DNA of 33,235 bases from Nemertoderma westbladi (Eukaryota; Animalia; Xenacoelomorpha). The stretch lies in assembly GCA_032718475.1 (NCBI GenBank), contig JAUCBJ010007458.1:1-33235 (forward strand). Direction: 5' to 3'. The notes beneath the pieces are model-generated. The model was not told the DNA's origin, did no database searches, and saw only the letters and a list, made by a program, of their open reading frames with translations. Made by a program: the position numbers and the translations under genes. Each line of letters starts with the position of its first letter. Position 1 is the first letter of the stretch. Below are positions 1,270 to 33,235 of this stretch, piece by piece.

Positions 1270-1338
1270 TTGTGTAACTCTATAGGTATATAAGTAGATG
1301 ACTAGGTCACTCCCACTCCTTGCAAATTGCAGATGAAA
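1270..1338 (+). repeat. 5' copy of a 69-bp target-site duplication of RTE element 1
   Basis: ttgtgtaactctatagg...gcagatgaaa recurs at 3693-3761 with one mismatch (T1299/G3722) and brackets the LINE exactly. Confidence 0.93.
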
Positions 1339-3644
1339 AGAAGTTCAAGAAGCGAACTGGAAAGCTATGGACTCATAGTGGACCCAGTGGTCACAAGTCC
1401 CAGATAGACCATATCCTGTTTCGTAGGAAATACAGGAGCTCTATGCAAGACTGTAATGCATTTACACTACGACCCTTCTCCAGTGATCACCGCCTTATTG
1501 TGGCCAAGGTAAGACTTAGTCTGCGTGCTAGCAGAACAACGAAATCTGCCTTGCCGCGGCATGACTTGTCCTCTCGGTTGAAACAGCCTAGTGTGAGATC
1601 CAGCTTCACACTACACCTGAGCAACAGGTATGAGGTTCTTGCCTCTGAGGCGACAGATCACTGTGAGGGCTATACTGCCTTCACAGGGGCAGTTAAGTTA
1701 GCAGCTGCAGAAACAGTTCCTGTATACCCTCGAAACAGAAAACGGGCCCCCTGGACTGACAACAAAATTCAGAAGTGACGAAATGACCTCTACAAGGCGC
1801 AGAAAGAGTCCCGACTCAAACAGACTACAGCGGCCAAGAATGCAGTTAAGGCTGCATCTAGGTCCCTGAACAGGCAGTACTCTGTTAATTTACAGGAGCT
1901 AATAAACCAACAGGTTGATGCCATCAATGATGCTGACGACAGCAGGCAATCATCCCAGGCATGGAGATCGATCAACTTGCTTGCTGGTTGAAAAAGCCAA
2001 CCAACCACCAAGGTTAAGGCTGAATCACCAGCCGATCGCCTCAATGGTTGGAAGGCCCACTTTGAAAAGCTCCTCAATAATGACAGGGTATTGCCTGATA
2101 ACTTTATAGAAGTAAAAGTGTCTGAGTCTGTACTCCCAGATATTCCCATTGGTGATATCTCCTTTGCAGAAATGAAGGCTGCTGCAAAGAGCATTAAGAC
2201 CAATCGTGCCAGTGGAGTAGATGGTGTTCCCCCTGAGGTTTTTAAAATACCTGAGTGTTTAAAGCTCATCTATCCCATCATAGTAGACATGTACCGTACA
2301 ACAAGAGTCCCACAAGAAATGAAAACAAATAAGTTGGTGCCAGTTCCCAAGAAGGGCAACCTAACACTCTATGGTTCTTTTCGGGGAATCTCATTGATCT
2401 CAATTGCTGCAAAGCTATACAATAGAATTATATTAAATCGCATCAGGGATCCCATTGAGAGACTGCTCCGTGGCAATCAGAATGGGTTCCGTAAAGGTCG
2501 TGGGACCATGGAGCCCATTTGGCACTTAGAAGGATAAGTGAAGAGTTATCAAAAAAGAAAGACAGGCATCTGGCTGTTATCTTTGTTGACTTCTTCAAGG
2601 CCTTTGATTCAGTCTCTCGCTCACGTATGTTCAGCATACTTTCATTATATGGGATTCCTGATGAAATTATTGCAGCAATCAGATCAGTATACGATGGTTC
2701 GACAACATTTGTGTCTACTGTTGACGGTGACACAGAACCATTTGAAGTGTTATGGGGCGTCCTCCAGGGAGACACACTTGCACCATTCTTGTTCATAATT
2801 GTTGTTGACTATGTTCTACGCATGTCCTTAGATCATCATAATGATGATGGGGTGATGATAACTCCACCTACTGGCTCCAGAAGTCGAGGAAATCCTGCCA
2901 AGTACCTAACTGATCTAGACTTTGCTGATGACTTAGGAGTACTCTCAGAATCACTAGAGGGAGCCCAACGGCTCCTCAGCTCATTAGAACATGCTGCTTC
3001 TAGTGTTGGTCTTTTTATTAACTCCAGAAAGACCAAAATTTTGACAGTTAACTTTGAAAGTCCTCAGCAAGTCTCTGATCGGATGAGCATAAGCTCAAAA
3101 GATGGTATGCTTGAGCATGTGGATGACTTCTGTTACCTGGGATCACGGATCCGGAAGTCAGGTGAGGACCTTCGAATACGTAAGGGAAAAGCATGGGCAG
3201 CCTTGAATAGGCTTTCCAGGATTTGGAAGTCACCGAGAATTAATCGGAAACTTAAGGTCCGGTTATTTAGAGCAGCAGTAGTTCCAGTACTCCTCTATGG
3301 GAGTCCATGCTGGGCTCTAACTGCTGAGGACACCAAATCTCTGGATGGCACATTCACAAGAATGCTACGCCGGGTTTATTGTGTCAAGTTCAATGCACAC
3401 ATCTCCAACCAGACACTATATAACATTGGAGGTGTCTCATTGGTTCCCCCAAGCTTGACACTAGAACAAAATCGCTTCCGCTTTGCAGGACATTGTGAAT
3501 AAGCATGGTGGACAGCCCATGACTTTCTTGAGACGCATCTTAAAGGACACTGGCCTTGAAGATGCGGATGATCTAGCAAATGTCATGGCTGATATGGAGT
3601 TGTGGCGGTGCAATTTTGTCGATAAGCCGGCACAGCATTCTTAA
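1339..3644 (+). pseudogene. Disrupted APE-RT ORF of RTE element 1
   Basis: ORF pieces 1320-1778, 2091-2537 and 2519-3502 are separated by stops and frameshifts; the C-terminal region after AGHCE appears internally deleted. Confidence 0.88.
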
Positions 3645-12034: not shown

Positions 12035-15000
12035 AGACCCCTACAGTCGGCAGCAGGGCTGTAGGCTATGGATAGGCGGAAGGTATTCAACCAACAGCTA
12101 GACATGCTGAAAAGGTCGGCGGAAAGTAATCAACCAACGGCGACCTACTGCGAAGACGCTTGTAGGAGTTGCGACCACAAGCGGTTTACTCACGCAACTG
12201 AAAGATATGAGTATGAGAACCCTCCAGGAGAAATACCGGCTCGGTCGTTGCCCGGGTCAACAAGGACCGCGTCCCTCAGTGGTACACCAGGCTGGGGTCG
12301 ATAAATTGGCTACTGGAACAGAAGACCGAGAAGAAAGAAGAACCAACCTGTTGAAATGTAAAAAGACACTAAAGATTGCTACAATGAACGCACGCACGCT
12401 GAAAGCACATACCAAACAGGGTGACATGGTCGCTCTGGCAATGGAATATAACATCGACATCATCTGCATCCAAGAACATCGGATTTGTCATGAAGACACT
12501 GCCATGAAGTACAATGACATTGGAAATGGATGGACGTTAGTAACAAGCTCAGCAGTAAGAAACTCGACCAATGCATCAATTGGTGGAGTAGGAATTCTGC
12601 TTAGCCCATTTGAACTTAAGACCCTTAACAACAGCGAATCTATAAATTCCAGGGTTATGATCGCAACATTTGATGGGAATCCCAAGGCAACAGTTATATG
12701 TTGCTACAGTCCAACCAATGCCTCAGAGCCAGAACAAGCAGTCAAGTTTTATGAAGAACTGACTGGACTTATAAAAGACATTCCGAAACACAATGTTAAA
12801 GTCATTGCTGGTGATCTGAATGCCCAAATTGGCCCAGAAGACATCAAGGGTTACACCTATAACACCAGTTCTAACAGAAATGGGTACTTACTTTTAGACC
12901 TAATGGAAGAATGTGAATTGATACCAACAAACAACACATTCGAAAAGAGTAAGGGGAAGCTATTGACCTTTCAATACCCTAATGGAACCAAAGCACAACT
13001 GGATTACATCCTCATAAACAAAAAGTGGAGAAACAGCATGATCAACTGCGAGGCATACAGCTCGTTCAACCTAATTGGTTCGGACCACATAATTGTGACT
13101 GCAGAGATCAGACTCAGTTTGAGAGCCAGCAAACCCAGGACAAGCAAGCAAATCAAATATGACTGGGAAAAACTCAGAACTGACAATGCTGTAAAGGATG
13201 CTTATACAGTAGAAGTTCAAAACCGCTTTGAAGCACTTCAGTCAATGGATGAAGACCAATCCACCAATTCAATATACCAGAATATAATAACAGCCCACAA
13301 GGAATCAGCTAAGAAGCATATCCCCCAGAAACCCAAACGAAAACAATATATGCCATGGCAAAACTCTGAGGTTACTTGTAGGAGAGAAGATCTTATGATA
13401 GCCTACAAAGTTAAAACCGAACAACCAACAACCGAAAACATTAACAAGGTTGAGAAAGCTAAGGACGATCTTAAATTGGCCTACAACATCAGCCAGGAAA
13501 AGTACATACAGGATAAAACTAAAGCAATTACAACTACTCACATACAGCAACAATCAAGACTTCCTGGCAAACTGTAAATGAGGTATCTGGTCGGAAAAGT
13601 TGTGCAAAGGGGCGCCTCAAAGCCGATAGTCCTGAAGAACGTGTTGGGAAGTGGAAAAATCACTTCAGCAACTTGCTTGGGCAGCCACCAAACATCGAGG
13701 TCAGCCCTACAAGGAAAATATATGACAAGACACTACCTATAGAAACAGGGGACTTCACACCTGCCGAACTCCAAAGAAGCATTAAAAGCATGTCCAATAA
13801 TAAAGCGAGTGGATTAGATGAAATCCCAGCGGAGGTATGGTAAACCGGAGTGCTAAACAGACCATTATTGAATGTTTGCAACCGGATGTTAAAAGGGGAA
13901 TAGCCACCACCAATTTGGACTAAAGGTCAACTAAAGCCTCTCCCCAAGAAAGGAGACCTCGGCATACCAACAAACTATCGTGGGATCTGTCTGCTTGTGG
14001 TAGCTGCCAAAATATACAATAAAATGATTCTATATAGGATTAGGCATCACATAGAGAAACTACTGAGTAAGAGCCAAAACGGATATCGACCAAGTAGATC
14101 AACAATAGCTCAGATACTTGCACTACGGAGACTGATTGAAGGAATTAAGTCAAAGAATCTCCCCGCAGTCATGACTTTTGTGGACTTCAAGAAGGCATTC
14201 GACTCCATCCATAGAGGAAAAATGCTTGAAATCCTAAGAGCTTATGGAATACCAGAGGTAATAATTGTTGCTGGCATTGGATTGTTATATTGTGACACAG
14301 AAGCGCAGGTACTCTCACCAGATGGTGAAACTGAGTTTTTCTCAATCCTGGCTGGTGTACTGCAAGGTGACACATTAGCACCATTACTATTTGTAATTGT
14401 GCTGGATTACGCAATGAGGACAGCCACAAAGGGTGAAGACCTGGGATTCACACTTCAAGAACGCAGAAGTAGTAGATATCCGGCAACTACAGTCACAGAC
14501 ACCGACTTTGCGGATGACATCGCCCTGTTCTTTAATACCCTAGCAGATGCACAGCTTCTACTAAATAAAGTGGAGAGGGCTGCTAAGGAGGTTGGATTGC
14601 ATATAAATGCTGCCAAGACCGAATTTATGACCTTTAATGTTGATGGAAACTTGACAACCATTGACAATAATCAACTAAGGAAGGTTGACGACTTCCAGTA
14701 CCTTGGATCATGGATAGAGAGTAGCAAAAAGGACTTAAAAGTTAGGAAAGAAAAGGCTTGGGTAGCTCTATCAAAAATGGATACCATCTGGAAATCAGAT
14801 CTCTCCAGGCACCTGAAGACTAAGTTCTTTCGAGCCACAGTGGAAAGTGTATTTTTATACGGGGGTGAGACCTGGACACTGACTAAATCACTTGAACAAC
14901 GAATCGATGGTTGCTACACAAGACTACTAAGGGCAGCCCTAAACATCAGCTGGAGACAACACATGACAAACGCCGAGCTTTATGGTACAATACCACCTGT

Positions 15001-15265
15001 ATCAACCACCCTCCGTGAACGCAGATTAAGATTCAGTGGGCACTGCTGGAGAAGTAAAGACGAGGTCATACCAGATCTACTTTTCTGGCAACCAACTCAT
15101 GGAAAGCGTAGTCGTGGACGACCGGCCATAACATATATAGATCAACTTGAAAGGGATACTGAACTTGGGAGAAACGAAATTGCGACAACTATGGAGAATC
15201 GGGAAGCCTGGAAGGATCTCATTTCCACTGTCCGAGTTCGCTCGACCTAGTAGTAGTAGTAGTAG
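12035..15265 (+). mobile_element. Near full-length RTE-clade non-LTR retrotransposon, family 2
   Basis: Short 5' UTR, complete APE domain (ATMNARTL, CIQEHR, CYSPT, AGDLNA, LDYIL, SDH), RT (VDFKKAFDSI, GVLQGDTLAP, DFADD, YLGS, GRP), (TAG)6 tail, and 11-bp TSD taatagctaat at 12024-12034 and 15266-15276. Confidence 0.95.
12207..15250 (+). pseudogene. APE-RT polyprotein of RTE element 2, disrupted
   Basis: ORFs 12207-13577 (APE) and 13997-15250 (RT) are separated by a frameshift near 13560 and in-frame stops near 13841 and 13900; the stop codon is the first TAG of the tail. Confidence 0.9.
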
Positions 15266-15267
15266 TA

Positions 15268-15583
15268 ATAGCTAATGTAAATGAGTTCTAAAGTTTTGAG
15301 TGATAATGTTAACCTTACTCTGTGTAAGTGTTCAAAAGCATTCATCCTAACTAAAAGTTTTGTTAGGGGGTTTTCCTGATCGCTGATTTCATTCCAAATG
15401 CCAGTTTCACTTTTAATGAAAATTATTATGTCTCTATGTCTGTATGACATAGTGTGTCTGTGTGTCTGAGCGTCCGTACGACAATCTGTCTATCATCATA
15501 CCACCTAGCTAAAACGTTTTGTTGTTGTTTTCTTGGTCGCTGCTTTCCTTTCCGAAGTAAGTTTTCATTTTTAGCAAAATTTA
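15268..15583 (+). repeat. Non-microsatellite part of the left arm of a long inverted repeat (partner 27486-27788); carries a motif from a CAGA-microsatellite-associated interspersed repeat
   Basis: Reverse complement of 27486-27788 apart from a few SNPs and 1-, 2- and ~10-bp indels; diverged relatives at 24128-24240 and about 23295-23400. Confidence 0.9.
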
Positions 15584-16627
<1,044 letters not shown>

Positions 16628-17466: not shown

Positions 17467-17875
17467 GTTGGTCGGTCTTCTGGTCTGGCAGTAGTCAGTC
17501 GGTTGGTTTTCTGGTCTGTCAGTGTATTTATTCAACCGATATTTGTTGGTTGGTCTTCTGGTCTGGCAGTGGTCGGTCAGTTGGTTTTCTGGTCTGTCGG
17601 TGTATTTATTCGGCCCATATTTGTTGGTCGGTCTTCTGGTCTGGCAGTAGTCTGTCGGTTGGTTTTCTGGTCTGTCAGTGTATTTATTCAATTGATATTT
17701 GTTGGTTGGTCTTCTGGTCTGGCTGTGGTCGGTCAGTTGGTTTTCTGGTCTGTCGGTGTATTTATTCGGCCCATATTTGTTGGTCGGTCTTCTGGTCTGG
17801 CAGTTGTCGTTTGGTTGGTTTTGTGGTCTGTCAGTGTATTTATTTGGCCTATATTTTTTTCGGTCTTCTGGTCTC
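17467..17875 (-). repeat. 78-bp minisatellite, ~5.2 copies, alternating A/B variants
   Basis: gtgtatttatt at 17522, 17600, 17678, 17756 and 17834; the minus frame reads NKYTDRPENQ(P/L)TD(Y/H)CQTRRPTNKY(GP/RL). Confidence 0.95.
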
Positions 17876-18621: not shown

Positions 18622-21600
18622 CTAACTACGCCATAGGGTAAATATCCAGAGGGGCCAGCTATTCAAAAAGCAAATAGCAGCTGTATGACTGGAGTTGAAA
18701 GTATCATTAAGGCGGGCATGTGGGGCGAGCCACATAGTTAGCAAAACAATAATCTATAAAATAAAACAAACTGACTAATATAAAATCCTAAGTAGAATAT
18801 ACAAAACAAAGTTCACATGTTTTAGTACAGACCAATACGGGGAACTACAGCTTCAGAATGAATCCTACGCTCGTGGTTAGTAAACCTTTTAGAACATGTA
18901 ATATTGAGCGCACCGATCCCACAAATAGCAAAGTGCTGCAGGAGCAAGACTTCAGGACTCGATAAATCGACTCCTAGTCCCCTGCCAGCTGCGTCATTTA
19001 TGGCACTACGGTGACCTCGGAGGCGCTCATGTAAACGCTATTCTGTCTGGCCGAGATACCACAAGTGTGGATGCAGTTTACATTTAATAAAATAAATCAC
19101 ATTTAAATGATTTGCAGTTAAATCTCCCATGGATGGGGTCACCCCATGGTGTCCGGCGCTGGTCTAGAACGGCCGAGCAGAATTTGCTACGAGGCCCATT
19201 GCAAGAGTGGTTACCAAGAGGCAGTGTTGGCTCGTACTTGGTGATCAACAGTTTACCTAACGATGGGAGGTTACGCGGGACCGTTTGGACACTAATACCT
19301 AGCGAACGCAAGTCAGCATTATATTTTCGGATAACGGGCGCTAGGACAGGCAGGAACTGTGGGGTCGTAGGGAGATATATAGAGGTGTATTAGTATTTTG
19401 GCCCACTCGATGTAGTCTTATTTAAATTTTGGGGTGCTGATGGACCATCCCCCTCCGTTGGTAAAGACGACTGCTGCGTGATCGGCACTGGACCAAGAGC
19501 TGTTGGGTTCGACGCATGGAGGGAGAGGAGGAATCCAGCGGATAGCCTCGGTTCTCACACAACTTGAGGTACTGGTGTTTATAACATGTGAACGAATAGT
19601 TTGAGTCAGTTAAACGGCGAATACGTAAAATTTCAGATTTAACCACTGCCCGTAATGTAGGTTTATGGTGGAAACTAGAGTACATAATAGGTAGTTTATT
19701 AGCCATTGGTTTTCTAAATAAACGAGTTCTAAGGGTGTAGGCATTAGCAGCAATCGTTAGATCTAGGTAGTCGACACTAGCATGGGAGTACTCCATTGTA
19801 AATTGGATGGCATCACTATTATATAAATTGCTGCAAGCTGAATTGAATGCGGTCTTCATGAACTCGAAATGCTCATCAGTTAGTCGCTCATCGTAAATGG
19901 CGAAACTATCATCCACCAGAGTACGAAAGAATGAAGGAGTCCGTAGCGAAATAGTTATCGCCCTCTTGAGTACATTGTACGAACTGATTATAGAATAATC
20001 ACTACCGCTCATAGGTGCAGCTGCGATTTGCAGGTAGTAATAATTCTGGTAAAAGAAAAAGTTGTGGTATAGAAGAAACCGTAAAATTGTTGCGAGTTGA
20101 GTTGGTATAAAAATAGAACGTTCAGATAATGCATGCATGGTAGCCTCAATACCCAATTCATGAGGGATGGCGGTAAACATGTCGATTACATCAATAGTAA
20201 CTAAAGTAAAATGGGAATTATTAGTTGTTGTAGGCATGGTTTGTTTGAGAGCTTTTTATACTATGATCGGCATGCTGCATTGCAGCTGCATTTTTAAGAA
20301 TGCTGTGCCGGAACTTTTTAGATAGTTATCGGCAGTAGTAACTAAAGGGTGCAGGTAGTGGTGCATCATTTTTGGATAAGGGTTTAAAAAATGCGTCCGT
20401 ATTATTAGATATAATAGGTCTACCTTTTGGGATTAGGGCACCATTAGGGAGGGTTACCCACTCGTCACGTTAAGAGTTATAAAGATATGGCCGGTAGTGA
20501 AGGTATTAGGGAAGAGGTGATGGTGAAGCCGTTGGTGCACAATAGCAAGGGAATCTAATAACGATCGGCTTTCAACACGAAATCGTGCAGTAGGGTCTTT
20601 GCGTAGTTTCTCATATTTTTTCTATCACCCAAAATTCGAAGGATCTCATATTCCTAAGCAGATTTATCCAATAAAATAATATTTACCAGTTTTGTCACCT
20701 CTAAGGAATGCTAAATTCTTGTTATTTCGGAGCTGTTTGAGAGCCAAATGCTGTGCTGGGGGTGATATTAGGGCACACAACCTCATTAAGTTTATCTACA
20801 TTGACCCTTCGCACTGCTCTGTGAAAGCCAGAAATATATTCTCAACAGAAACGCAATCTACAGATGACGCTACCCAACGGGGATGTCTAAAGTGAGGGGG
20901 ATCAGGAGGTTTAACAGCTATAGGGGGTGACTGCAGGATGGCGTTAAGTCTAGAATTACTCCTACCTCGCAGATTGTAGTTAACTGAGTCCTGTGCTGTT
21001 CTCGAACGGGTGCGCGAAGAAGGAGTGTGAGGAATGAGAACCCCAGCACGGCGGTCGAGTTGTAAAGGAAAATCTGGGTGCAAATTGCAGTCTACCCGGG
21101 GTCGGGTCTGTGGAGGAGGCTGTGGATCTCTGTTCAGCTCATGTAATACCTCAACAAGTGGTGTTGGTTCATAAACATTTGGTGGTTGAATAGACACTAA
21201 CATTTGTTGGTTGCGAACGAGTATGAGATAGTTGCGTGGCAGTACTAACCTTGGGAGTAGCAGAAGTGTTTGATGCTACAGGGACTTCGGTGACATGATG
21301 CAGTTAGCCAGATGTTTGAGGGGGCGTTGCTGATTGTTCATCCATAGGTGGATTAACCAATTTTCGAAATCTAATTCTAATTTTCGTTGCTGCTGAGGCT
21401 ACGTCAATCTTAGCCTCTAGAACATCAGAGGGCGCTGTACCATGGTATGGAATGAAGGTAAACCCCAATCCAAGCAAGTCTCTTTGGTCCTGGTTGAGGA
21501 GTATTTTAGAAAGGTTATTTACTGGTGCCTGCAGAATGGGAATTGGATTCGTAGATTGAGGGTGGGAGGGGTCCAACCAAATCACGGAATCGTTGGTTGG

Positions 21601-22130
21601 ACGGAACTCGTCCATTTGCTGTATCTAAATAGCGACTTAACTTCCCGTCCCATCTCAAAAGCAAACTTGTAATCCAGACGTTGGCACGCGACCTCCAACT
21701 CACGCCCACCATCCAATCAATGGTAGCCAGGCGTTTAGATACTGCGTAGCGTAGCGATATAGTTGCCGCTGTTGATAGCATCCTGTTCGAGACGGGAAAG
21801 GCATTTGCTAAACGCAACCTTTAATCTTCTGAGCGATTTATACTTTAGGTTGAGCTCTTGCCGAAAGATTTTCGTTAAAAGTCCCTGGCTACAAAGTTGG
21901 ATAAAATTTAATAATTTGTTGCAGTCGTGCTGCCATAAATTGCGGCGGGAAACCAGCCCGGCGGCAATCTTTAAAATAGTCGATTTGTATAACGGTACGG
22001 TTTGTTTGATTTTTAATTTTAAACAATTCCTGACATCAGAAGAAGCTCTTCGGTTAATATCAAGCGAGTTAATGTAATGGAACGATGCCTTTCGTGGCGT
22101 AAGCATACTCAATATCTTCCATTGTTCCAT
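18622..22130 (-). pseudogene. PLE RT/GIY-YIG ORF broken by frameshifts, stops and an RTE micro-insertion
   Basis: Collinear ORF pieces 21735-22187, 21304-21615, 20796-21203, 19422-20237 and 19084-19311, plus hand-translated DKG-type and GIY-YIG segments. Confidence 0.82.
20259..20311 (-). mobile_element. 53-bp 3'-terminal copy of RTE family 1 inserted into the PLE RT
   Basis: 20265-20311 is the exact reverse complement of 3627-3673, followed by one mismatch and a TAGTA tail; flanked by cttttta at 20252-20258 and 20314-20320. Confidence 0.9.
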
Positions 22131-22307: not shown

Positions 22308-22922
22308 ATAAATATTTTGCAAGTTTTTTATAATTTAATTCTTGATAACCAAACTTGGTGCGTATGCAGTCCGTCAAAAGTATGGAGAGTGGCTGAAGTT
22401 TGGTCAAAAATGAAATCATCTGTCAGTCAGTACCGGTAGTTTCACACTTGATGAAATTGACAGGTCAACTGCAGTTGAAATTGAACCAAACTTGGTATGT
22501 ATGCGGTGTCGTGCTGCGCGAATGCCCCACGAACATGTTGTATTCTGTAAGACCCCACGAACGTGTTGTATACTGTTTCTGTTCCTATAGGCCTACTGTT
22601 TCACACTGCAACAGCAATGTTTAATGTTTAATATTATGATATAGAAAGCAGAAGCTTATTGTACCTATGTACAGACAGAATTTAAAACGAATAGCGAATA
22701 GCGCAAATATCTGTAACATCATATTATTTAAAAATAATATAACGTAAAATGCAGCTGACGTTCCGATTTATTAATAAACCATTTGAAAGAAAAATAGCAT
22801 TATTTCTAACAACAATTATTATTTAATACAGGTAGCATTGTAAATAATTATTCAATACCGGTAGCATTGTAAATAATTATTCAATCAACGTAATTCGCTA
22901 TATTTCGCTCGTCGATCCTCGA

Positions 22923-22995
22923 GCCTCCATAGCTCAGGGGTTAGAGCACTAGTCTAGTAAACTAGGGGTCGAGAGTTCGATTCTCTCTGGGGGCT
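22923..22995 (+). tRNA. tRNA-Thr, anticodon AGT
   Basis: Complete cloverleaf: acceptor GCCTCCA/TGGGGGC, D stem GCTC/GAGC, anticodon stem CTAGT/ACTAG with loop CTAGTAA (AGT at 22956-22958), T stem GAGAG/CTCTC with TTCGATT; 73 nt. Confidence 0.95.
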
Positions 22996-22998
22996 TCA

Positions 22999-24049: not shown

Positions 24050-24120
24050 TACTACTACTACTAGGTCGAGCGAACTCGGGCAATGGTAATGAGATCCTTC
24101 CAGGCTTCCCTATTCTCCAT
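24050..24120 (-). mobile_element. 3' end of RTE family 2 with an intact (TAG)n tail
   Basis: Reverse complement matches about 15191-15261 (atggagaat.gggaagcctgg...cgctcgacctagtagtag) with about 4 mismatches. Confidence 0.92.
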
Positions 24121-24245
24121 TCCTAAAACCGACAGAGATACATACAGACATACAGACATAGTAGGTTTTGGTAAAAGTGAAAACGGACATCGGAAATGAA
24201 ATCGGCAACAAGAATAACCGCCATAACAAAACTTTTAGAACTTTT

Positions 24246-27485
<3,240 letters not shown>

Positions 27486-27788
27486 TAAATTTAGCTAAAA
27501 TGAAAACTTACTTCGGAAAGGAAAGCAGCGACCAAGAAAACCACAACAAAACGTTTTAGCTAGGTGGTATGATGATAGACAGATTGTCGTACGGACGCTC
27601 AGACACACTGTCATATAGACATAGAGACATAATAATTTTCATTAAAAGTGAAACTGGCATTTGGAATGAAATCAGCGATCAGGAAAACCCCCTAACAAAA
27701 CTTTTAGTTAGGATGAATGCTTTTGAACACTTACACAGAGTAAGGTTAACATTATCACTCAACTTTAGAACTCATTTACATTAGCTAT
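27486..27788 (-). repeat. Non-microsatellite part of the right arm of the inverted repeat (partner 15268-15583)
   Basis: Mirror ORF text SYRHRDIIIFIKSETGIWNEISDQENPLTK appears in both arms; sequence alignment by eye. Confidence 0.9.
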
Positions 27789-27795
27789 GAGAAAG

Positions 27796-27908
27796 AGTGG
27801 AAATGAGATCCTTCCAGGCTTCCCTATTCTCCATAGTTGTCGCAATTTCGTTTCTCCCAAGTTCAGTATCCCTTTCAAGTTGATCTATATATGTTATGGC
27901 CAGTCGTC
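27796..27908 (-). mobile_element. RTE family 2 3' fragment lacking its tail
   Basis: Reverse complement of 15117-15229 with about 2 mismatches; ends where cagtgacggattaacc begins. Confidence 0.9.
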
Positions 27909-28665
27909 AGTGACGGATTAACCTTGGCATATAAGGCACGTGCCTTAGGGCCAGCCGAAAATACGGGACATTTTTTCTCAACGAGTCATTCCTGTGAAAA
28001 AAATATTTTCTAAAATTTGTAGAAAACAGAGCAAGAAAGACTACTTGCTATCCCTAAGTTTGTGATAGAAAGTGCAAAATTTTAGCTCAGTCGACCGACA
28101 GGTGCTGTGTTATTAGTTCGAGACCTGATGGCAGGGAATTAATATAACATGGGCAGTAAAACTTTTTTTTTAATTTAATTTTAATTATTTGTCGTTATGC
28201 TCTTAAACTTTCTAGAACAACCACATAAATAGTAGTTGATAAAATAGTTGTTGATAAAGAAAAACGTGTCAGAAGTAACTTCTTGTCACTAATTTAATTG
28301 AACCGAAATTCAGATGTTCTGCCCTCGTGTATTGAGTTTTGCATTCGATGGCATTTTAGGTGCAATTCCTGCAAAACCTAAAACTCTCGGACAGCATAAT
28401 GGAATTTTAGTAAATTAAAATTAGTGACAAAAAGTGCTTATTTCCGAGACTGTTCTCTTATTGAAGAACTATATTTTCTTAGCAAGTCCAAATCTAGATC
28501 AGAAATATTATGTCTTTGCACTAAGCCCACACCTTTTATATATTTCTCTGTAAGTCCTGTAAAGATAAGAAGTACCCTGCGAAACCTACCCTACAGCAAA
28601 TAAATAACACATTCCCACGATCCGATCAAAATTGTTAAATGCCTACAGGGGCCAGTCAGCCTTAA
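27908..28665. mobile_element. Probable MITE starting CAGTG.CGGATTAA, right end interrupted at a TTAA
   Basis: Left terminus cagtgacggattaacc...aaggcacgtgcctt; the right part ends gccttaa (matches the inner TIR), then switches to ggggg instead of the expected tccgtcactg. Confidence 0.4.
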
Positions 28666-28746
28666 GGGGGCCAACTATAACCCCCATATAGAAATGAAAT
28701 TTTCGAAAATTTACACAATTTTTTGTAGTGTGATAGAAGGGCTTTC

Positions 28747-29333
28747 TGTTCGCGCTTTCAGACCTTTGGCAGTTTAACCCGCCAAATTAGAATGTCTTCT
28801 AGATAATAAATCGCTTTTTAGCCTATGACAAGTATTTGATTCACTACACTAGTCGAAACCAATCCGTGCGCGACCATTCACCCGCTGGATATTCCCGGGA
28901 GATTGGGTTCGACGGTTTAATTTTTATTGCTATGTAAGCCTAATGTATTATTCGACTGACAGTATTATATAATCTCTGACAATATTATTCACCTTCGGTA
29001 ATATTAACAGTTCCTTTAGGACGTGGCGCTTTATCTATATAAACAGAGTTATGACTTAAACTACTCACAACGATATGGCTTAATTATAATTCACATATAT
29101 GGCGCATTCTTTAGGAATTGCTTCTTTAACAGACTCACTCATACACTATGCTGCACAATACTGCACACTAATCTGCCAATCTTCACTGATTTTAGTCACA
29201 TATAAAAGGAACACAGGCTGACTCATGTAGGGTCTATCAAATAACATTAGATTCACTTCAAACCACTTTAACATAAGTCACAATCGTTATTGGTAACCTT
29301 TCTCTCTTACCTTCGGTATATCAAGAATATTGG
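28747..29333 (+). repeat. Direct repeat copy 1 (partner 32650-33235)
   Basis: About 7 differences over ~587 bp; offset 3903 bp; the match runs off the end of the window. Confidence 0.97.
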
Positions 29334-29965
29334 GTTGCGGGGTTATTTATCGTTATTCCAAATATAATAATTCATCAACCATATTATGAAGAACTGACAG
29401 TAAATAGCAGTATAAAACAACAACTGAACAGTTAGGTAGATCGGTACATCAGTACCGGTATGTCAGCAGTGAGATATTTACAGTGAGATATTCAAGGACG
29501 TCAGTTAAAGGATATATGCCCTTTATAATTAAACCTACCAGTGTACGACTAAAAAACAGTACAGCACAAAATACTTCCAAGCCGTTCTTTCTTTGGCTCA
29601 AGACTGAATGTCAACACTGCATATAGGCATTGCGTCATTTCTCGGAAATTTTCTGTACAAGGAGCCACAAAAACGCTCTCATTGGCTGACTGAACTGAGA
29701 GACGCCGTAGAACAAAGGAAATCAACACGTATGAATGTCAGCTGTTAACCGTAGTCATAGTAACTACTGTTCAAGAGTAGCTATCACCCTTTTGCGTCAC
29801 GAATTGCCATAGAATCATAAAATATGCCTTTCACAGTACACATACGGAGGAAATAGGTCTTAGATCCTCTAAAAACACAGATACAGCAATAATACGGTCT
29901 CTTACACTTATTAAATCAACTACAGAGTATTTTAATGTAAAAGATAATAAAAATAACGGGGCAAT

Positions 29966-30450
29966 TCAGCAAAGGCTTTTACATGGGGCTTCTAATGTCT
30001 TCAGGATTACTAGCACTTTCTCTATCCTGGTTGCAAAGGCTCTGATGTTGGTTGGGCTGTCGATTAGTCTGCCTGATATTACCCCTTTCAGGGTCTGTTT
30101 ATCTTGGCTGGATGGCCATACCCCCTACCTAACGCCTTCCAGGTAACCTGAAACCGTCCCTCTATTCCTTGATAATGTCTGACCTAGTCGTAGGCCTGTC
30201 CCACGGTGTAAACTCGTAAGTACTGTTGCTGTTCCGCTGCCTTTTGGTCCCGCTTGACCTGAGCTCGAGTGCCTATGATAGACCTACGATGTTGGACCAG
30301 CCTAGGTTCTGTTATTACTACTGGAGGGATGACCTTCCTCACAGTGGGAGGTGAACTGGATTTACGACCAGACGTTTGTACGTCTCTATCTGAGTCGCAG
30401 ATAGTTACATCTAATAAACTGTCTGACAGGTTCTGCTTAGTATCAGACAT
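29966..30450 (-). other. Possible degenerate small ORF of unknown function
   Basis: ATG-started 88-aa ORF in a GC-richer island; an overlapping frame continues GVWPSSQDKQTLKGVISGRLIDSPTNIRAFATRIEKVLVILKTLEAPCKSLC after a stop; no recognisable domain. Confidence 0.25.
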
Positions 30451-31777
30451 GACTATGTATACCGTTGAATGTCTACTGCTGTATTACAGTCTGAGTAAGT
30501 CTAATAACTCAGTATTAACTGCTAGCCTAGTAATTAATTACCGGTACTGCTACTCAGTGTAGCGTGATATATAATATATTAGAATACCGGTATGCTTATA
30601 GTATATATAACTATTATTACAGACTAGGTTTATCACAGAATACCGGTATAATTTTAGCACAAATATATATAAATATATAATAGGCCTATCGGAATACCGG
30701 TATACAGCTTACTGTTTGTAGTATATATAATTCTGGAATAGAATTAATTACAAGTACCGGTATAATTTCAGCCTAGATTTATAGAAATAAGATAATAGGC
30801 CTATCGTAAATACCGGTATATCAATTATTTTAGAATAATTGAATTTCTGAACTTTAAGGGTTACTTTGTTACTTTACTTACTTTATTACCGTTATTTGAG
30901 CAGTAGTCCAACTGATATTGAGACCTAATGGTTTTATGGTAGGCCTACTATTTATAAATCGTTAGATTTGATTTATAATGTATTTATACCCGTTTTAATG
31001 GGTTTAGTCAATGTTTGAAATAAATGTTATTATTTCATGGGGTAATCACTACACAAAGCGTTGCGCTTTTAGTGAAGTGTTACGTATAGGACACTAAAAC
31101 AAATAATTCTAATTTACCTAAGTTACTTAATACTACAAATTACGTACAATTCGGGTGAGATTACAATCTCTAAATAAACACAAAAATTTTACAAAAAAAA
31201 CAAAATACGAATTTTTTAGGGTAATTTTACAAGAAGTCTACAAACCAGCCTAACAAAGGGTTAGATAACCGGTTATTACAACGGACAGAGTACTACGGTA
31301 TTTGAAATAATAAGTAGTAGTAAATACACTGCATTGTCTAGATAGGAAAATACCACCGCCTGACGACCTATAGCCGTATCGCTATAGGTTCTACGTTATG
31401 TATCACGGAGTGTTCCTACCTAGAAGTTAATAGAGCTAATCGAATGTGCCTATCAACCACTTTACAACACAGATATAATGTCTACAATAATTACTTCGGA
31501 AAGTACTGTACACTAAACCCTAAATTAGGTACGAGTACTTATATAACAGATAATCAGTAGTTAAATATACTTGAACAGCTAAAAGAACCACGGCATCTGC
31601 TGGAGTGACGATGCACAAAATCACCAGTCTTTACCTACGCCGAGCAGCCCGTGTAGTACCGGGGTTAATTTAACTATAGCGGTATGTATAACAAACACAA
31701 TTACTGTAGGAACAAACTTGGGGAATGAATGTTGCGGATAATCGCATAAACTCTGAATAATAAATATTACGCTACGC

Positions 31778-32056
31778 GTACAAACTACTCAAACAAAATA
31801 CAGACCGAACACTGACAGACTACTATCAAGCCTAAACAAACTACGGTATATGCAGACTCCGAAATGATTAGGGAGTATGCGCTCTAACCCAGTAGTGCGA
31901 CTTATTCTTTAGTTGGGGGTTTACCTTACAGCGTTCGCTGCCCCTACTGCCTAACCGTACTTAATCGGACAGATGATCTACACACACGGCAATCCGTTCA
32001 GACCTAATAACAGCCGGACAACTATCCAGCCTACAAATTATCTAAATAAATTATAC
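31778..32056 (-). ncRNA. Predicted G-U-rich rod-shaped structured RNA, copy 1 (family not recognised)
   Basis: On the minus strand 31989-32015 pairs with 31818-31844 at 27/27 positions (11 G-U); further 11-12 bp helices extend inwards and outwards. Confidence 0.7.
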
Positions 32057-32066
32057 GCTACCCGTA

Positions 32067-32340
32067 CAGACTTACACAAACAAAGTACAGACTAAACGAT
32101 GGCAGACTACTCTCAAGCCTAAATAAACTACAGGACATGCAGACTCCGAAATGATTAGGGAGTATGCGCTCTAACCCAGTAGTGCGACTTATTCTTTAGT
32201 TGGGGGTTTACCTTACAGCGTTCGCTGCCCCTACTGCCTAATCGTACTTAATCGGACAGGTGATCTACACACACTGCAACTCGTTCAGACTTAACAGCAA
32301 TCAGACAACAGCTCAGCCTACAAATCGTCTGTACAATCTG
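32067..32340 (-). ncRNA. Predicted G-U-rich rod-shaped structured RNA, copy 2
   Basis: Same helices despite many arm substitutions (27/29 pairs in the central helix); apical region 136/138 identical to copy 1. Confidence 0.7.
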
Positions 32341-32649
32341 ATCAGGCTTACACGCCTTCTGTTCAATACTGGCCTACAAACAAATAAAACTTGACAGAAA
32401 TAAGTAAAAATCTCAATAAAAAACCAGGGCTGCAGTCCCTGATTAATTATTAAGGCCTACTGGTATATAACAATCAAAATCGAATAATACTGCTGTACCT
32501 GTACTGCTGTAGGTACCGGTCCGGGTGGTTAGGTAGTCAGGCCTACTGGTACCGGTTCTGGCAGTTGGGCCTACTGACCTACAGATGTACCGGTTGACCG
32601 GTACTTTCAACTTTATTGCTTACTGCAATAAAGAAGCTATATCCTTTAA

Positions 32650-33235
32650 TGTTCGCGCTTTCAGACCTTTGGCAGTTTAACCCGCCAAATTAGAATGTCT
32701 TCTAGATAATAAATCGCTTTTTAGCCTATGACAAGTATTTGATTCACTACACTAGTCGAAACCAATCCGTGCGCGACCATTCACCCGCTGGATATTCCTG
32801 GGAGATTGGGTTCGACGGTTTAATTTTATTGCTATGTAAGCCTAATGTATTATTCGACTGACAGTATTATATAATCTCTGACAATATTATTTACCTTCGG
32901 GAATATTAACAGTTCCTTTAGGACGTGGCGCTTTATCTATATAAACAGAGTTATGACTTAAACTACTCACAACGATATGGCTTAATTATAATTCACATAT
33001 ATGGCGCATTCTTTAGGAATTGCTTCTTTAACAGACTCGCTCATACGCAATGCTGCACAATACTGCACACTAATCTGCCAATCTTCACTGATTTTAGTCA
33101 CATATAAAAGGAACACAGGCTGACTCATGTAGGGTCTATCAAATAACATTAGATTCACTTCAAACCACTTTAACATAAGTCACAATCGTTATTGGTAACC
33201 TTTCTCTCTTACCTTCGGTATATCAAGAATATTGG
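32650..33235 (+). repeat. Direct repeat copy 2 (partner 28747-29333), truncated by the window end
   Basis: Starts immediately after the TTAA at 32646-32649. Confidence 0.97.

What the first reader, a model, noticed from the sequence alone, without database searches (positions are those of the whole stretch)
31778..32340. Tandem G-U-rich rod RNAs with pairing-preserving divergence and an invariant apical domain: candidate new structured RNA
Seen: two ~287-bp units that are poor DNA palindromes but pair almost end to end as minus-strand RNA. In copy 1, GGCUGUUAUUAGGUCUGAACGGAUUGC pairs with GUAGUUUGUUUAGGCUUGAUAGUAGUC at 27/27 positions (11 G-U), and GUAGGCUGGAUA/UGUUCGGUCUGU, UAUUUAGAUAA/UUGUUUGAGUA and GUGUGUGUAGAU/GUCUGCAUAUAC also pair fully. 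The arms differ by roughly a fifth between copies, yet most changes swap G-U with A-U or G-C, and one is a double U-A to A-U change. The apical region is identical over 105 nt (31850-31954 vs 32137-32241), and its first difference (G-U to A-U) also keeps pairing. Inference: selection on RNA structure, with the long wobble stem as a scaffold for a sequence-specific domain (protein binding, catalysis, priming or packaging). Alternatives are an hpRNA-type endo-siRNA precursor, or edited dsRNA fixed by reverse transcription. I could not match it to hammerhead, HDV, twister, pistol, SRP or snRNA motifs.
Basis: partly seen in the sequence, partly recalled or inferred. Interest (0 to 1): 0.85.

Follow-up and report, generated by a model that had tools for sequence, protein, structure and literature searches.

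The report
Wobble-stem RNA in retrotransposon leader
Two tandem 287-base units in the untranslated leader of a many-copy jumping gene of a likely animal genome are each predicted to fold into a long RNA stem rich in G-U pairs topped by a conserved head, which likely serves as the docking site by which the element's capsid protein picks this RNA for packaging.

Summary
Both units fold only as minus-strand RNA (z -6.8 and -3.7; plus strand about -0.5 and -0.8) and poorly as DNA. Over a third of arm pairs are G-U. The arms differ at 28 of 138 sites and the heads at 2 of 118, and arm changes break fewer pairs than chance.

The units are not a free-standing RNA gene. They lie about 310-870 nt behind the 5' LTR, in the 2.2-kb leader of a high-copy LTR retrotransposon that is probably BEL/Pao and lacks a tRNA primer site. 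The folding strand is the sense strand: it has 5 AUGs where 32 are expected.

Best reading: a duplicated cis-acting signal of the genomic RNA, most likely a Gag-binding packaging site presented on a wobble-weakened stem (about 45%). An export or splicing element is the main rival. Editing, hpRNA and known ribozymes are disfavoured. Expression, binding and family-wide covariation are untested.

The scan had not noted this RNA on other DNA. It had noted tRNA-free priming in BEL/Pao elements of other genomes.

The parts
31778..32056 (-). Unit 1: predicted rod of 74 arm pairs (28 G-U) plus head
32067..32340 (-). Unit 2: predicted rod of 68 arm pairs (24 G-U) plus head
31858..31975 (-). Head of unit 1 (predicted): 6-nt bulge, 5-bp helix, internal loop, 7+4-bp helix with a 1x1 mismatch, then a junction with a tetraloop hairpin, a 10-nt bulge (31919-31928), a 15-nt A-rich single strand (31900-31914) and a weakly predicted second hairpin
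   Evidence: pair probabilities (lower helices 0.83-0.99; top hairpin and G4/C4 helix 0.4-0.67)
32145..32262 (-). Head of unit 2; 105 nt identical to unit 1 (32137-32241)
30451..32649 (-). 2199-nt 5' leader that holds both rods; strongly depleted of AUG on this strand only
   Evidence: 5 against 32.2 +/- 4.4; plus strand 26 against 29.7
32650..33235 (-). Inner part of the 5' LTR (cut by the window end); ends in ACA on the minus strand
   Evidence: (580 of 587 identical to the other LTR)
28747..29983 (-). Second LTR, 1237 bp, TGTA...AACA on the minus strand
   Evidence: contig pieces begin or end at 29983 and 28747; termini
32628..32649 (-). Primer-site position: no TGG start; the first 12 nt match a segment of the element's own LTR as an exact complement, extendable to 21 pairs (-20.3 kcal/mol)
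29505..29527 (-). LTR segment complementary to the primer-site position (candidate self-primer or cyclisation partner)
30091..30450 (-). Broken gag-like frame: 88 codons, a stop, then about 30 codons with a weak DUF1759 (BEL/Pao Gag) match
   Evidence: (E 0.051, 14 bits, cutoff 25.4)

Best explanation
The two units lie in the 5' untranslated leader of a many-copy LTR retrotransposon, on its sense strand, are each predicted to fold into a long G-U-rich stem carrying a conserved branched head, and likely act as a duplicated packaging signal that the element family's Gag protein would bind. Shown: the position 310-870 nt behind the 5' LTR; the LTR pair; the family's abundance in public contigs; strand-specific folding; pair-keeping divergence; AUG depletion on the folding strand. 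Inferred: the element is BEL/Pao and mostly non-autonomous. Inferred: the head's purine-rich single strands are the binding site and the stem isolates and presents them. Inferred: wobbles every 1-4 pairs roughly halve the helix energy, so that scanning ribosomes and reverse transcriptase can pass, the DNA forms no cruciform and the RNA is a poor perfect-duplex substrate. Inferred: two copies help a defective element compete for its helper's Gag.
For: LTR pair and ends. Summed contig depth in run X1 is 4.5e5-1.5e6 over 30238-33235, against 6.7e3 in the flank bin 28500-28657; 12,739 contigs were laid on the 1.15-kb stretch. The minus-strand leader has 5 AUGs against 32.2 expected, and AUG is the most depleted of 64 trinucleotides. 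The rods have 1 AUG against 8.5 expected. The plus strand of the whole leader and the outside controls are normal. Arm pairs broken between units: 5 of 63 against 10.8 +/- 2.1 simulated (P 0.004) and 3 of 60 against 10.4 +/- 2.1 (P 1e-4). Longest Watson-Crick run in unit 1: 3 against a shuffle mean of 6.8 (P 0.001). The arm-arm duplex is -81 kcal/mol against about -147 for a perfect duplex of one arm. Both rods persist when the whole leader is folded. Precedent: plant pararetrovirus leaders expose a purine-rich, coat-protein-binding packaging signal on top of a large stem-loop whose basal arm sequences are not conserved (PMC5902531, passages). [quoted passage not shown]
Against: No binding, expression or probing data exist. 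Covariation rests on two units with a single double change, and the shuffle control is not exceeded (249 of 500), as expected for two rows. The even spacing of wobbles is not significant in unit 2 (P 0.069). Of the 18 single-letter family differences inside the units (taken from the 40 of 170 rows shown), 5 keep a pair, 7 are unpaired and 6 break one. Three of those six are the other unit's letter, but one of the remaining three (32287) is carried by about half of the X1 depth. The upper head is only weakly predicted (0.4-0.67). The BEL/Pao label rests on a sub-threshold Pfam match. Position alone does not separate packaging from export or splicing control. Head identity could come from conversion between units.
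Confidence: 0.45

Rival explanations
1. The same leader module binds a host factor and controls export, localisation, splicing or polyadenylation of the unspliced genomic RNA, as the HIV RRE or the musD transport element do.
For: The RRE also has a long terminal Stem I topped by a multi-stem junction, and the LTR retrotransposon musD has its own structured transport element (PMC5767303, passages). Each head holds a 5'-splice-site-like word in its predicted 10-nt bulge (31927 and 32214). Poly(A)-like hexamers lie about 500 nt upstream in the 5' LTR (32830 and 32824).
Against: The position just behind the primer site is the usual place of packaging signals (own knowledge). No Rfam match to such elements. 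The splice-site-like word pairs only about six bases with U1 (by eye, U1 sequence recalled) and does not need a 105-nt context.
Confidence: 0.22
2. The rods control translation of gag, as an internal ribosome entry site or as a ribosome-shunt stem.
For: The leader is 2.2 kb long with two rods near -100 kcal/mol. CaMV, RTBV and foamy virus shunt across leader stem-loops (PMC5902531, passages).
Against: AUGs are depleted before, inside and after the rods (0 against 3.0, 1 against 8.5, 4 against 18.5), which fits scanning through them. No short ORF lies in the 306 nt before the first rod. The rods end about 1.3 kb upstream of the gag-like start.
Confidence: 0.08
3. The head is a catalytic or primer-handling RNA that helps this tRNA-free element make or position its own primer, or cuts the transcript.
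For: The element lacks a tRNA-type primer site and carries a self-complement instead. The head is the most conserved part and has alternative pairings and pseudoknot candidates. Earlier scan notes report many ribozyme-bearing repeats in this genome (unchecked).
Against: No Rfam match at E up to 10. No CUGANGA hammerhead core lies in either unit, and no twister-like or HDV-like loop word lies in the element (recalled motifs). A cut inside the leader would destroy the genomic RNA. In Tf1 the primer is released by RNase H (recalled).
Confidence: 0.07
4. The rods are hpRNA-like sources of small RNAs, or decoys that absorb the host's silencing machinery.
For: They are long imperfect G-U-rich duplexes, and unit 1 has a 27-pair uninterrupted helix. 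The CaMV and RTBV leaders yield decoy siRNAs (PMC5902531, passages).
Against: The arms, which would be the guides, drift by 20% while the loop region is kept. The longest helix in unit 2 is 12 pairs. The arms match nothing else in the window.
Confidence: 0.07
5. The G-U pairs are a fossil of A-to-I editing, or of neutral decay, of an old inverted repeat fixed by reverse transcription, and the heads are identical through recent conversion.
For: An LTR element passes through RNA in every cycle. Of the 16 one-sided pair-keeping arm changes, 10 are A-U/G-U and 6 are G-C/G-U. Conversion between tandem units was not testable.
Against: A/G and C/U differences are 12 and 12. The 5' neighbours of G in G-U pairs resemble those in G-C pairs. 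Of the 12 A/G sites, 6 have a 5' G in at least one unit, a context ADAR disfavours (recalled). Neutral DNA-level decay would put wobbles on both strands, which searches exclude.
Confidence: 0.06

Closest known systems
Leader stem-loop of plant pararetroviruses (CaMV, RTBV; Caulimoviridae, order Ortervirales); PMC5902531, passages read
   Same: A large leader stem-loop with basal arms whose sequence is free to change, and a purine-rich, coat-protein-binding packaging signal exposed on top.
   Different: Here the module is in an animal LTR retrotransposon, is duplicated in tandem, has about 37% evenly spaced G-U pairs, has no upstream short ORF for shunting, and is depleted of AUGs inside the stem. 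Binding is untested.
HIV-1 Rev response element and the musD transport element; PMC5767303, passages read
   Same: The RRE has a long terminal stem closing a multibranch protein-binding domain of similar overall size (size recalled). musD shows that LTR retrotransposons carry structured cis elements.
   Different: No sequence or Rfam match, no Rev-like gene is seen, and the module lies in the 5' leader.
Retroviral Psi with looped purines (MMTV); PMC8096270, abstract read
   Same: Position near the primer site, with purine-rich unpaired stretches in a branched stem-loop.
   Different: Psi elements are clusters of short hairpins (own knowledge), not heads on 70-pair wobble rods. No conserved palindromic dimerisation loop was identified here.
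BEL/Pao LTR retrotransposons (Belpaoviridae); PMC8742986, whole text read
   Same: LTR of about 1.2 kb (upper end of the 0.2-1.2 kb range), TG...CA ends, and a weak DUF1759 Gag match.
   Different: The profile describes an 18-nt tRNA-Arg or tRNA-Gly primer site and a polypurine tract; neither is seen in this copy. The profile calls replication poorly understood and describes no leader RNA structure.
Self-primed LTR elements (Tf1/Sushi, Tcn1, TAR); PMC6317226, passages read
   Same: A 12-nt exact complement between the first bases after the 5' LTR and a segment of the LTR meets that paper's criterion (at least 10 bp, starting 0-5 bp after the LTR).
   Different: Those are Ty3/gypsy or Ty1/copia lineages. 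The RNA 5' end is unmapped here.

Membership tests
LTR retrotransposon | Two long direct repeats with TG...CA ends | tested here: met
   580 of 587 identical. Ends at 28747 and 29983 from contig edges, TGTA...AACA on the minus strand. Both LTRs share a letter at 28791/32694 that about 91% of X1 depth lacks.
LTR retrotransposon | Target-site duplication | not testable with these tools
   The window ends inside the 5' LTR and no genome is held.
LTR retrotransposon | Polypurine tract before the 3' LTR | tested here: not met
   The LTR abuts gag-like sequence at 29983/29984. In run X3 the same segment continues into other sequence (records 12 and 13), so this copy looks truncated or rearranged.
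BEL/Pao (Belpaoviridae) | BEL/Pao-type Gag and Pol domains | tested here: inconclusive
   DUF1759 E 0.051, below cutoff, on a 30-residue piece. No homologues found. No pol in this copy.
BEL/Pao (Belpaoviridae) | 18-nt tRNA-Arg/Gly primer-binding site (PMC8742986) | tested here: not met
   The leader does not start with TGG. Its first 12 nt are instead complementary to the element's own LTR.
Packaging signal (Psi) of reverse-transcribing elements | Lies on the sense strand near the 5' end of the genomic RNA | tested here: met
   310-870 nt behind the 5' LTR. The strand is fixed by AUG depletion and by the gag-like frame.
Packaging signal (Psi) of reverse-transcribing elements | Specific Gag/NC binding; needed for encapsidation | not testable with these tools
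   Needs bench work.
Known self-cleaving ribozymes and other Rfam families | Covariance-model match or conserved catalytic core | tested here: not met
   0 matches at E up to 10 on 31750-32360. The 4 weak matches in 28000-33235 all lie outside the units. The motif scan found no CUGANGA in the units; a looser CUGANNGA occurs at 31812 (+) and 32288 (-), each in one arm only.
Retrozyme (ribozyme-flanked tandem repeat) | One ribozyme per unit and mobility as free tandem arrays | tested here: not met
   No ribozyme motif. The units are embedded in a longer LTR element whose flanking leader is covered as deeply as the units.
hpRNA (endo-siRNA precursor) | Dicer-dependent small RNAs from both arms | not testable with these tools
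   No small-RNA data offered. The conservation pattern is the reverse of that expected.
ADAR-edited retroelement copy | Excess of A-to-G changes in ADAR context | tested here: not met
   12 A/G against 12 C/U differences, with no context bias. Two units only.

The most novel reading that the evidence does not exclude
The head is an undescribed class of catalytic or primer-positioning RNA that belongs to tRNA-free BEL/Pao elements and helps cut or place their self-primer. It is carried on a 'stealth' helix whose regularly spaced G-U pairs let a 70-pair RNA stem exist without a DNA palindrome, without blocking scanning ribosomes and without looking like perfect double-stranded RNA.
Probability: 0.07. 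Interest if true: 0.9.

Novelty: new variant of a known kind. Interest (0 to 1): 0.52.

Why it matters
BEL/Pao elements are among the least studied LTR retrotransposons: the ICTV profile (PMC8742986) calls their replication poorly understood and names no RNA signal besides the primer site and the purine tract. A compact, duplicated, selected leader module gives a concrete candidate for how such an element's RNA is recognised, and it can be tested by probing and binding assays on a 280-nt transcript. The wobble-spaced stem (never more than 3-4 Watson-Crick pairs in a row) is a natural example of a long helix that exists as RNA but not as DNA. If it proves general, it would be a searchable signature for functional RNA in transposons that palindrome finders miss. 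The kind of thing, a cis-acting leader structure of a reverse-transcribing element, is known.

Tried and rejected
No whole genome is held, so other genomic copies could not be aligned.

Exact-pattern scans for relatives found nothing: viral contigs 0 in 3 scans, metagenome contigs 0 in 2, prokaryote genomes 0 in 2. These collections are not animal genomes, so this says little.

Protein searches with the gag-like frame found no homologue. An atlas look-up was not carried out, so the BEL/Pao label stays weak.

Sequencing runs: no RNA holder listed. Run X5 is only guessed to be RNA and is kept as contigs, so expression, strand, ends and circular junctions are untested.

A one-unit joint (31830 to 32117) appears in one contig of depth 9. 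Short contigs cannot span the 105-nt identical head, so the frequency of one-unit copies is unknown. The junction between the units is covered at about 5e5 summed depth, so two-unit copies are common.

Considered by eye and dropped, with motifs recalled: pistol, twister, HDV-like, permuted hammerhead, group II intron domain V, SRP, telomerase template, HBV-epsilon-like priming bulge. Cross-pairing between the two units is minor (2-4 pairs).

Literature: searches gave no listed paper on BEL/Pao leader structure or BEL/Pao self-priming. In some searches only 10 of 16 and 10 of 309 hits were listed. The phrase 'bel pao' scored 0 in every listed paper and may not match the spelling with a slash, so absence from print is only weakly tested. 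PMC554778 and PMC3118150 (term passages only) had nothing on primer sites or leaders. No supplements were read; those of PMC3118150 could bear on LTR lengths. (hpRNA) and one search gave only listings, apart from PMC5767303.

Full report
1. Observation. Tandem Repeats Finder gives two units of period 287 at 31759-32325, and BLAST finds no third copy in the window. As RNA, the minus strand folds at -108.4 and -97.0 kcal/mol (z -6.76 and -3.66; 0 of 200 shuffles as stable). The plus strand is unremarkable (z -0.52 and -0.84). As DNA, all four strands reach only -23 to -28. Unit 1 has 74 arm pairs with 28 G-U; unit 2 has 68 with 24.

2. Is the fold selected? In the gap-free stretch the arms differ at 28 of 138 positions and the heads at 2 of 118 (P 1e-6). 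I scattered the same numbers of transitions and transversions at random over the arms, 20,000 times. This breaks 10.8 +/- 2.1 of the 63 unit-1 pairs (observed 5, P 0.004) and 10.4 +/- 2.1 of the 60 unit-2 pairs (observed 3, P 1e-4). The simulation puts all changes on one branch. A pair count gives 45 unchanged, 16 one-sided, 1 double and 5 broken among 67 arm pairs. Its column-shuffle control is not exceeded (249 of 500), which two rows cannot do, while slid registers pair only 32-45%. Wobbles are more evenly spaced than chance in unit 1 (longest Watson-Crick run 3 against a mean of 6.8, P 0.001) but not clearly so in unit 2 (4 against 6.4, P 0.069). Family differences seen in public contigs are mixed. 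Of 18 rows inside the units, out of 40 shown of 170, 5 keep a pair, 7 are unpaired and 6 break one. Three of the six are the other unit's letter, and one of the rest is common. Two frequent head differences (31873 and 31949) fall on the two sides of one predicted 1x1 mismatch. Loose ends at 31864, 32151 and 31977 show more distant relatives with changed heads. Read by eye, the changes are compatible with the helix below the junction, including one double change, but the two sides come from different contigs, so this is unphased and uncomputed.

3. Context, the main new result. Public DNA contigs cover the units and their surroundings massively: 12,739 contigs in X1 and 2,713 in X3 on 31500-32650. 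Summed depth in X1 is 4.5e5-1.5e6 over 30238-33235, against 6.7e3 in the flank bin 28500-28657. The tool warns that this is no copy number. A single X3 contig inside the leader has depth 8,566, against about 20 for a contig that looks single-copy, so hundreds of copies is a rough reading. A direct repeat starts at 28747 and 32650 (580 of 587 identical). Contig edges at 29983 and 28747 define a 1237-bp LTR that reads TGTA...AACA on the minus strand. Between the LTRs, the minus strand has a 2199-nt stretch without long frames, then an 88-codon frame, a stop and a 30-residue piece that weakly matches DUF1759 (E 0.051, below cutoff), which I recall as the BEL/Pao Gag domain. The 2199-nt stretch holds 5 AUGs against 32.2 +/- 4.4 in 1000 shuffles. 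AUG is the most depleted of 64 trinucleotides, while the plus strand of the whole stretch (26 against 29.7) and the outside controls are normal. So the strand that folds is the sense strand, and the rods sit 310-870 nt into a real 5' leader. The bin 30080-30237 is about 40-fold shallower than its neighbour, and X3 contigs carry 29983-30226 on into other sequence. Most copies therefore lack this gag part, and this copy is truncated at the LTR edge with no polypurine tract. A nested insertion followed by LTR-LTR recombination would explain that (inference). The leader does not begin with TGG. Its first 12 nt are the exact complement of 29505-29516 inside the LTR, extendable to 21 pairs. That meets the self-primer criterion of PMC6317226 (passages read) and departs from the tRNA-Arg/Gly site in the ICTV profile (PMC8742986, whole text). 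I noted this before seeing that the scan has recorded the same signature in BEL/Pao elements of other genomes (unchecked notes).

4. The head. Pair probabilities give, from the stem upward: a 6-nt bulge, a 5-pair helix, an internal loop, a 7+4-pair helix with a 1x1 mismatch (0.83-0.99), and then a junction. The junction carries a firm 4-pair tetraloop hairpin, a G4/C4 helix and a second hairpin (0.4-0.67), a 10-nt purine-rich bulge and a 15-nt A-rich strand. Alternative 5-6-pair helices exist, so a switch or pseudoknot is possible. Rfam gives nothing at E up to 10, and recalled ribozyme cores are absent from the head.

5. How it most likely works. A conserved, purine-rich, branched head on a sequence-flexible stem, just behind the primer site of a reverse-transcribing element, is the architecture described for CaMV and RTBV. 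There the coat protein binds a purine-rich signal on top of the leader stem-loop, and the basal arm sequences are exchangeable (PMC5902531, 12 of 19 passages shown). MMTV Gag likewise binds looped purines (PMC8096270, abstract). I therefore read the unit as a packaging signal (0.45). Unlike CaMV there is no short ORF ahead of the stem, and AUGs are depleted inside the rods too (1 against 8.5; the two units are not independent), which suggests that ribosomes scan through. The wobbles make that plausible: the arm duplex is -81 and -69 kcal/mol, against about -150 for a perfect duplex of the same arm. Avoidance of DNA cruciforms, of reverse-transcriptase stalling and of duplex sensors are further inferred benefits; none was tested. 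Duplication would raise avidity for a helper's Gag (inference). Both rods fold independently inside the whole leader.

6. Rivals. An RRE- or MTE-like export, splicing or polyadenylation element (0.22) has a similar shape (PMC5767303, passages), and each head's bulge holds a splice-donor-like word. Translation control (0.08) conflicts with the AUG pattern. A catalytic or priming role (0.07) is not excluded but has no motif support. An hpRNA or decoy role (0.07) conflicts with drifting arms, a kept loop and a 12-pair longest helix in unit 2. Editing or decay plus conversion (0.06) conflicts with 12 A/G against 12 C/U differences and no ADAR-type context (ADAR preference recalled), though conversion of the heads alone remains open.

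7. Novelty. No relative was found in the collections at hand, none of which holds animal genomes as such. The scan's own index had no look-alike. Paper searches listed nothing on BEL/Pao leader structure, but the search phrase may miss the slash spelling and only part of the hits were listed. The class, a structured cis element in the leader of a reverse-transcribing element, is known. This form is, as far as these searches reach, undescribed: a tandem, wobble-spaced 70-pair rod with a 118-nt head in a probably self-primed BEL/Pao family. Verdict: real and selected, a new variant of a known kind, with function inferred from position and analogy; interest 0.52.

Noticed in passing
window 29096-29313 and 32999-33215 (minus strand, in both LTRs): A strong splice-donor-like word (29313 and 33215) is followed by a cluster of 7 AUGs (29274-29096), and only one more AUG follows in the last 350 nt of the LTR. 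This may be an intron inside the LTR, as scan notes report for other BEL/Pao elements.
   Followed up: partly
window 29422-29500: The LTR segment right behind the candidate self-primer is atypical in this copy: depth falls to about 2e4, and contigs skip or replace it.
   Followed up: no
window 31300-31499, 32400-32699, 30900-31099: Further stable folds in the same leader (z -5.9, -4.4 to -6.1 and -5.4 on the minus strand with 15 shuffles each). They have few G-U pairs; the last folds on both strands.
   Followed up: partly
window 30581-30845: Degenerate 57/114-bp tandem repeats built on an ACCGGT palindrome inside the leader; unit number varies among contigs.
   Followed up: no
window 1302-3502 and 12111-15250 (+): Two broken LINE copies with endonuclease and reverse-transcriptase motifs (RTE-like by recalled motifs).
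   Followed up: no
window 19084-21624 (-): Fragments resembling a Penelope-like reverse transcriptase and endonuclease (recalled motifs; no Pfam hit).
   Followed up: partly
window 15117-16627 and 24050-27908: Two inverted copies of a repeat that carries very long (ACAG)n tracts (261 and 810 units) with 94-98% matching flanks.
   Followed up: no
window 17467-17874: A 78-bp G/T-rich tandem repeat (5.3 copies) beside a short frame resembling a Ty3/gypsy pol fragment (label recalled).
   Followed up: no
window 22922-22997 (+): tRNA-Thr(AGT) gene called by ARAGORN.
   Followed up: no
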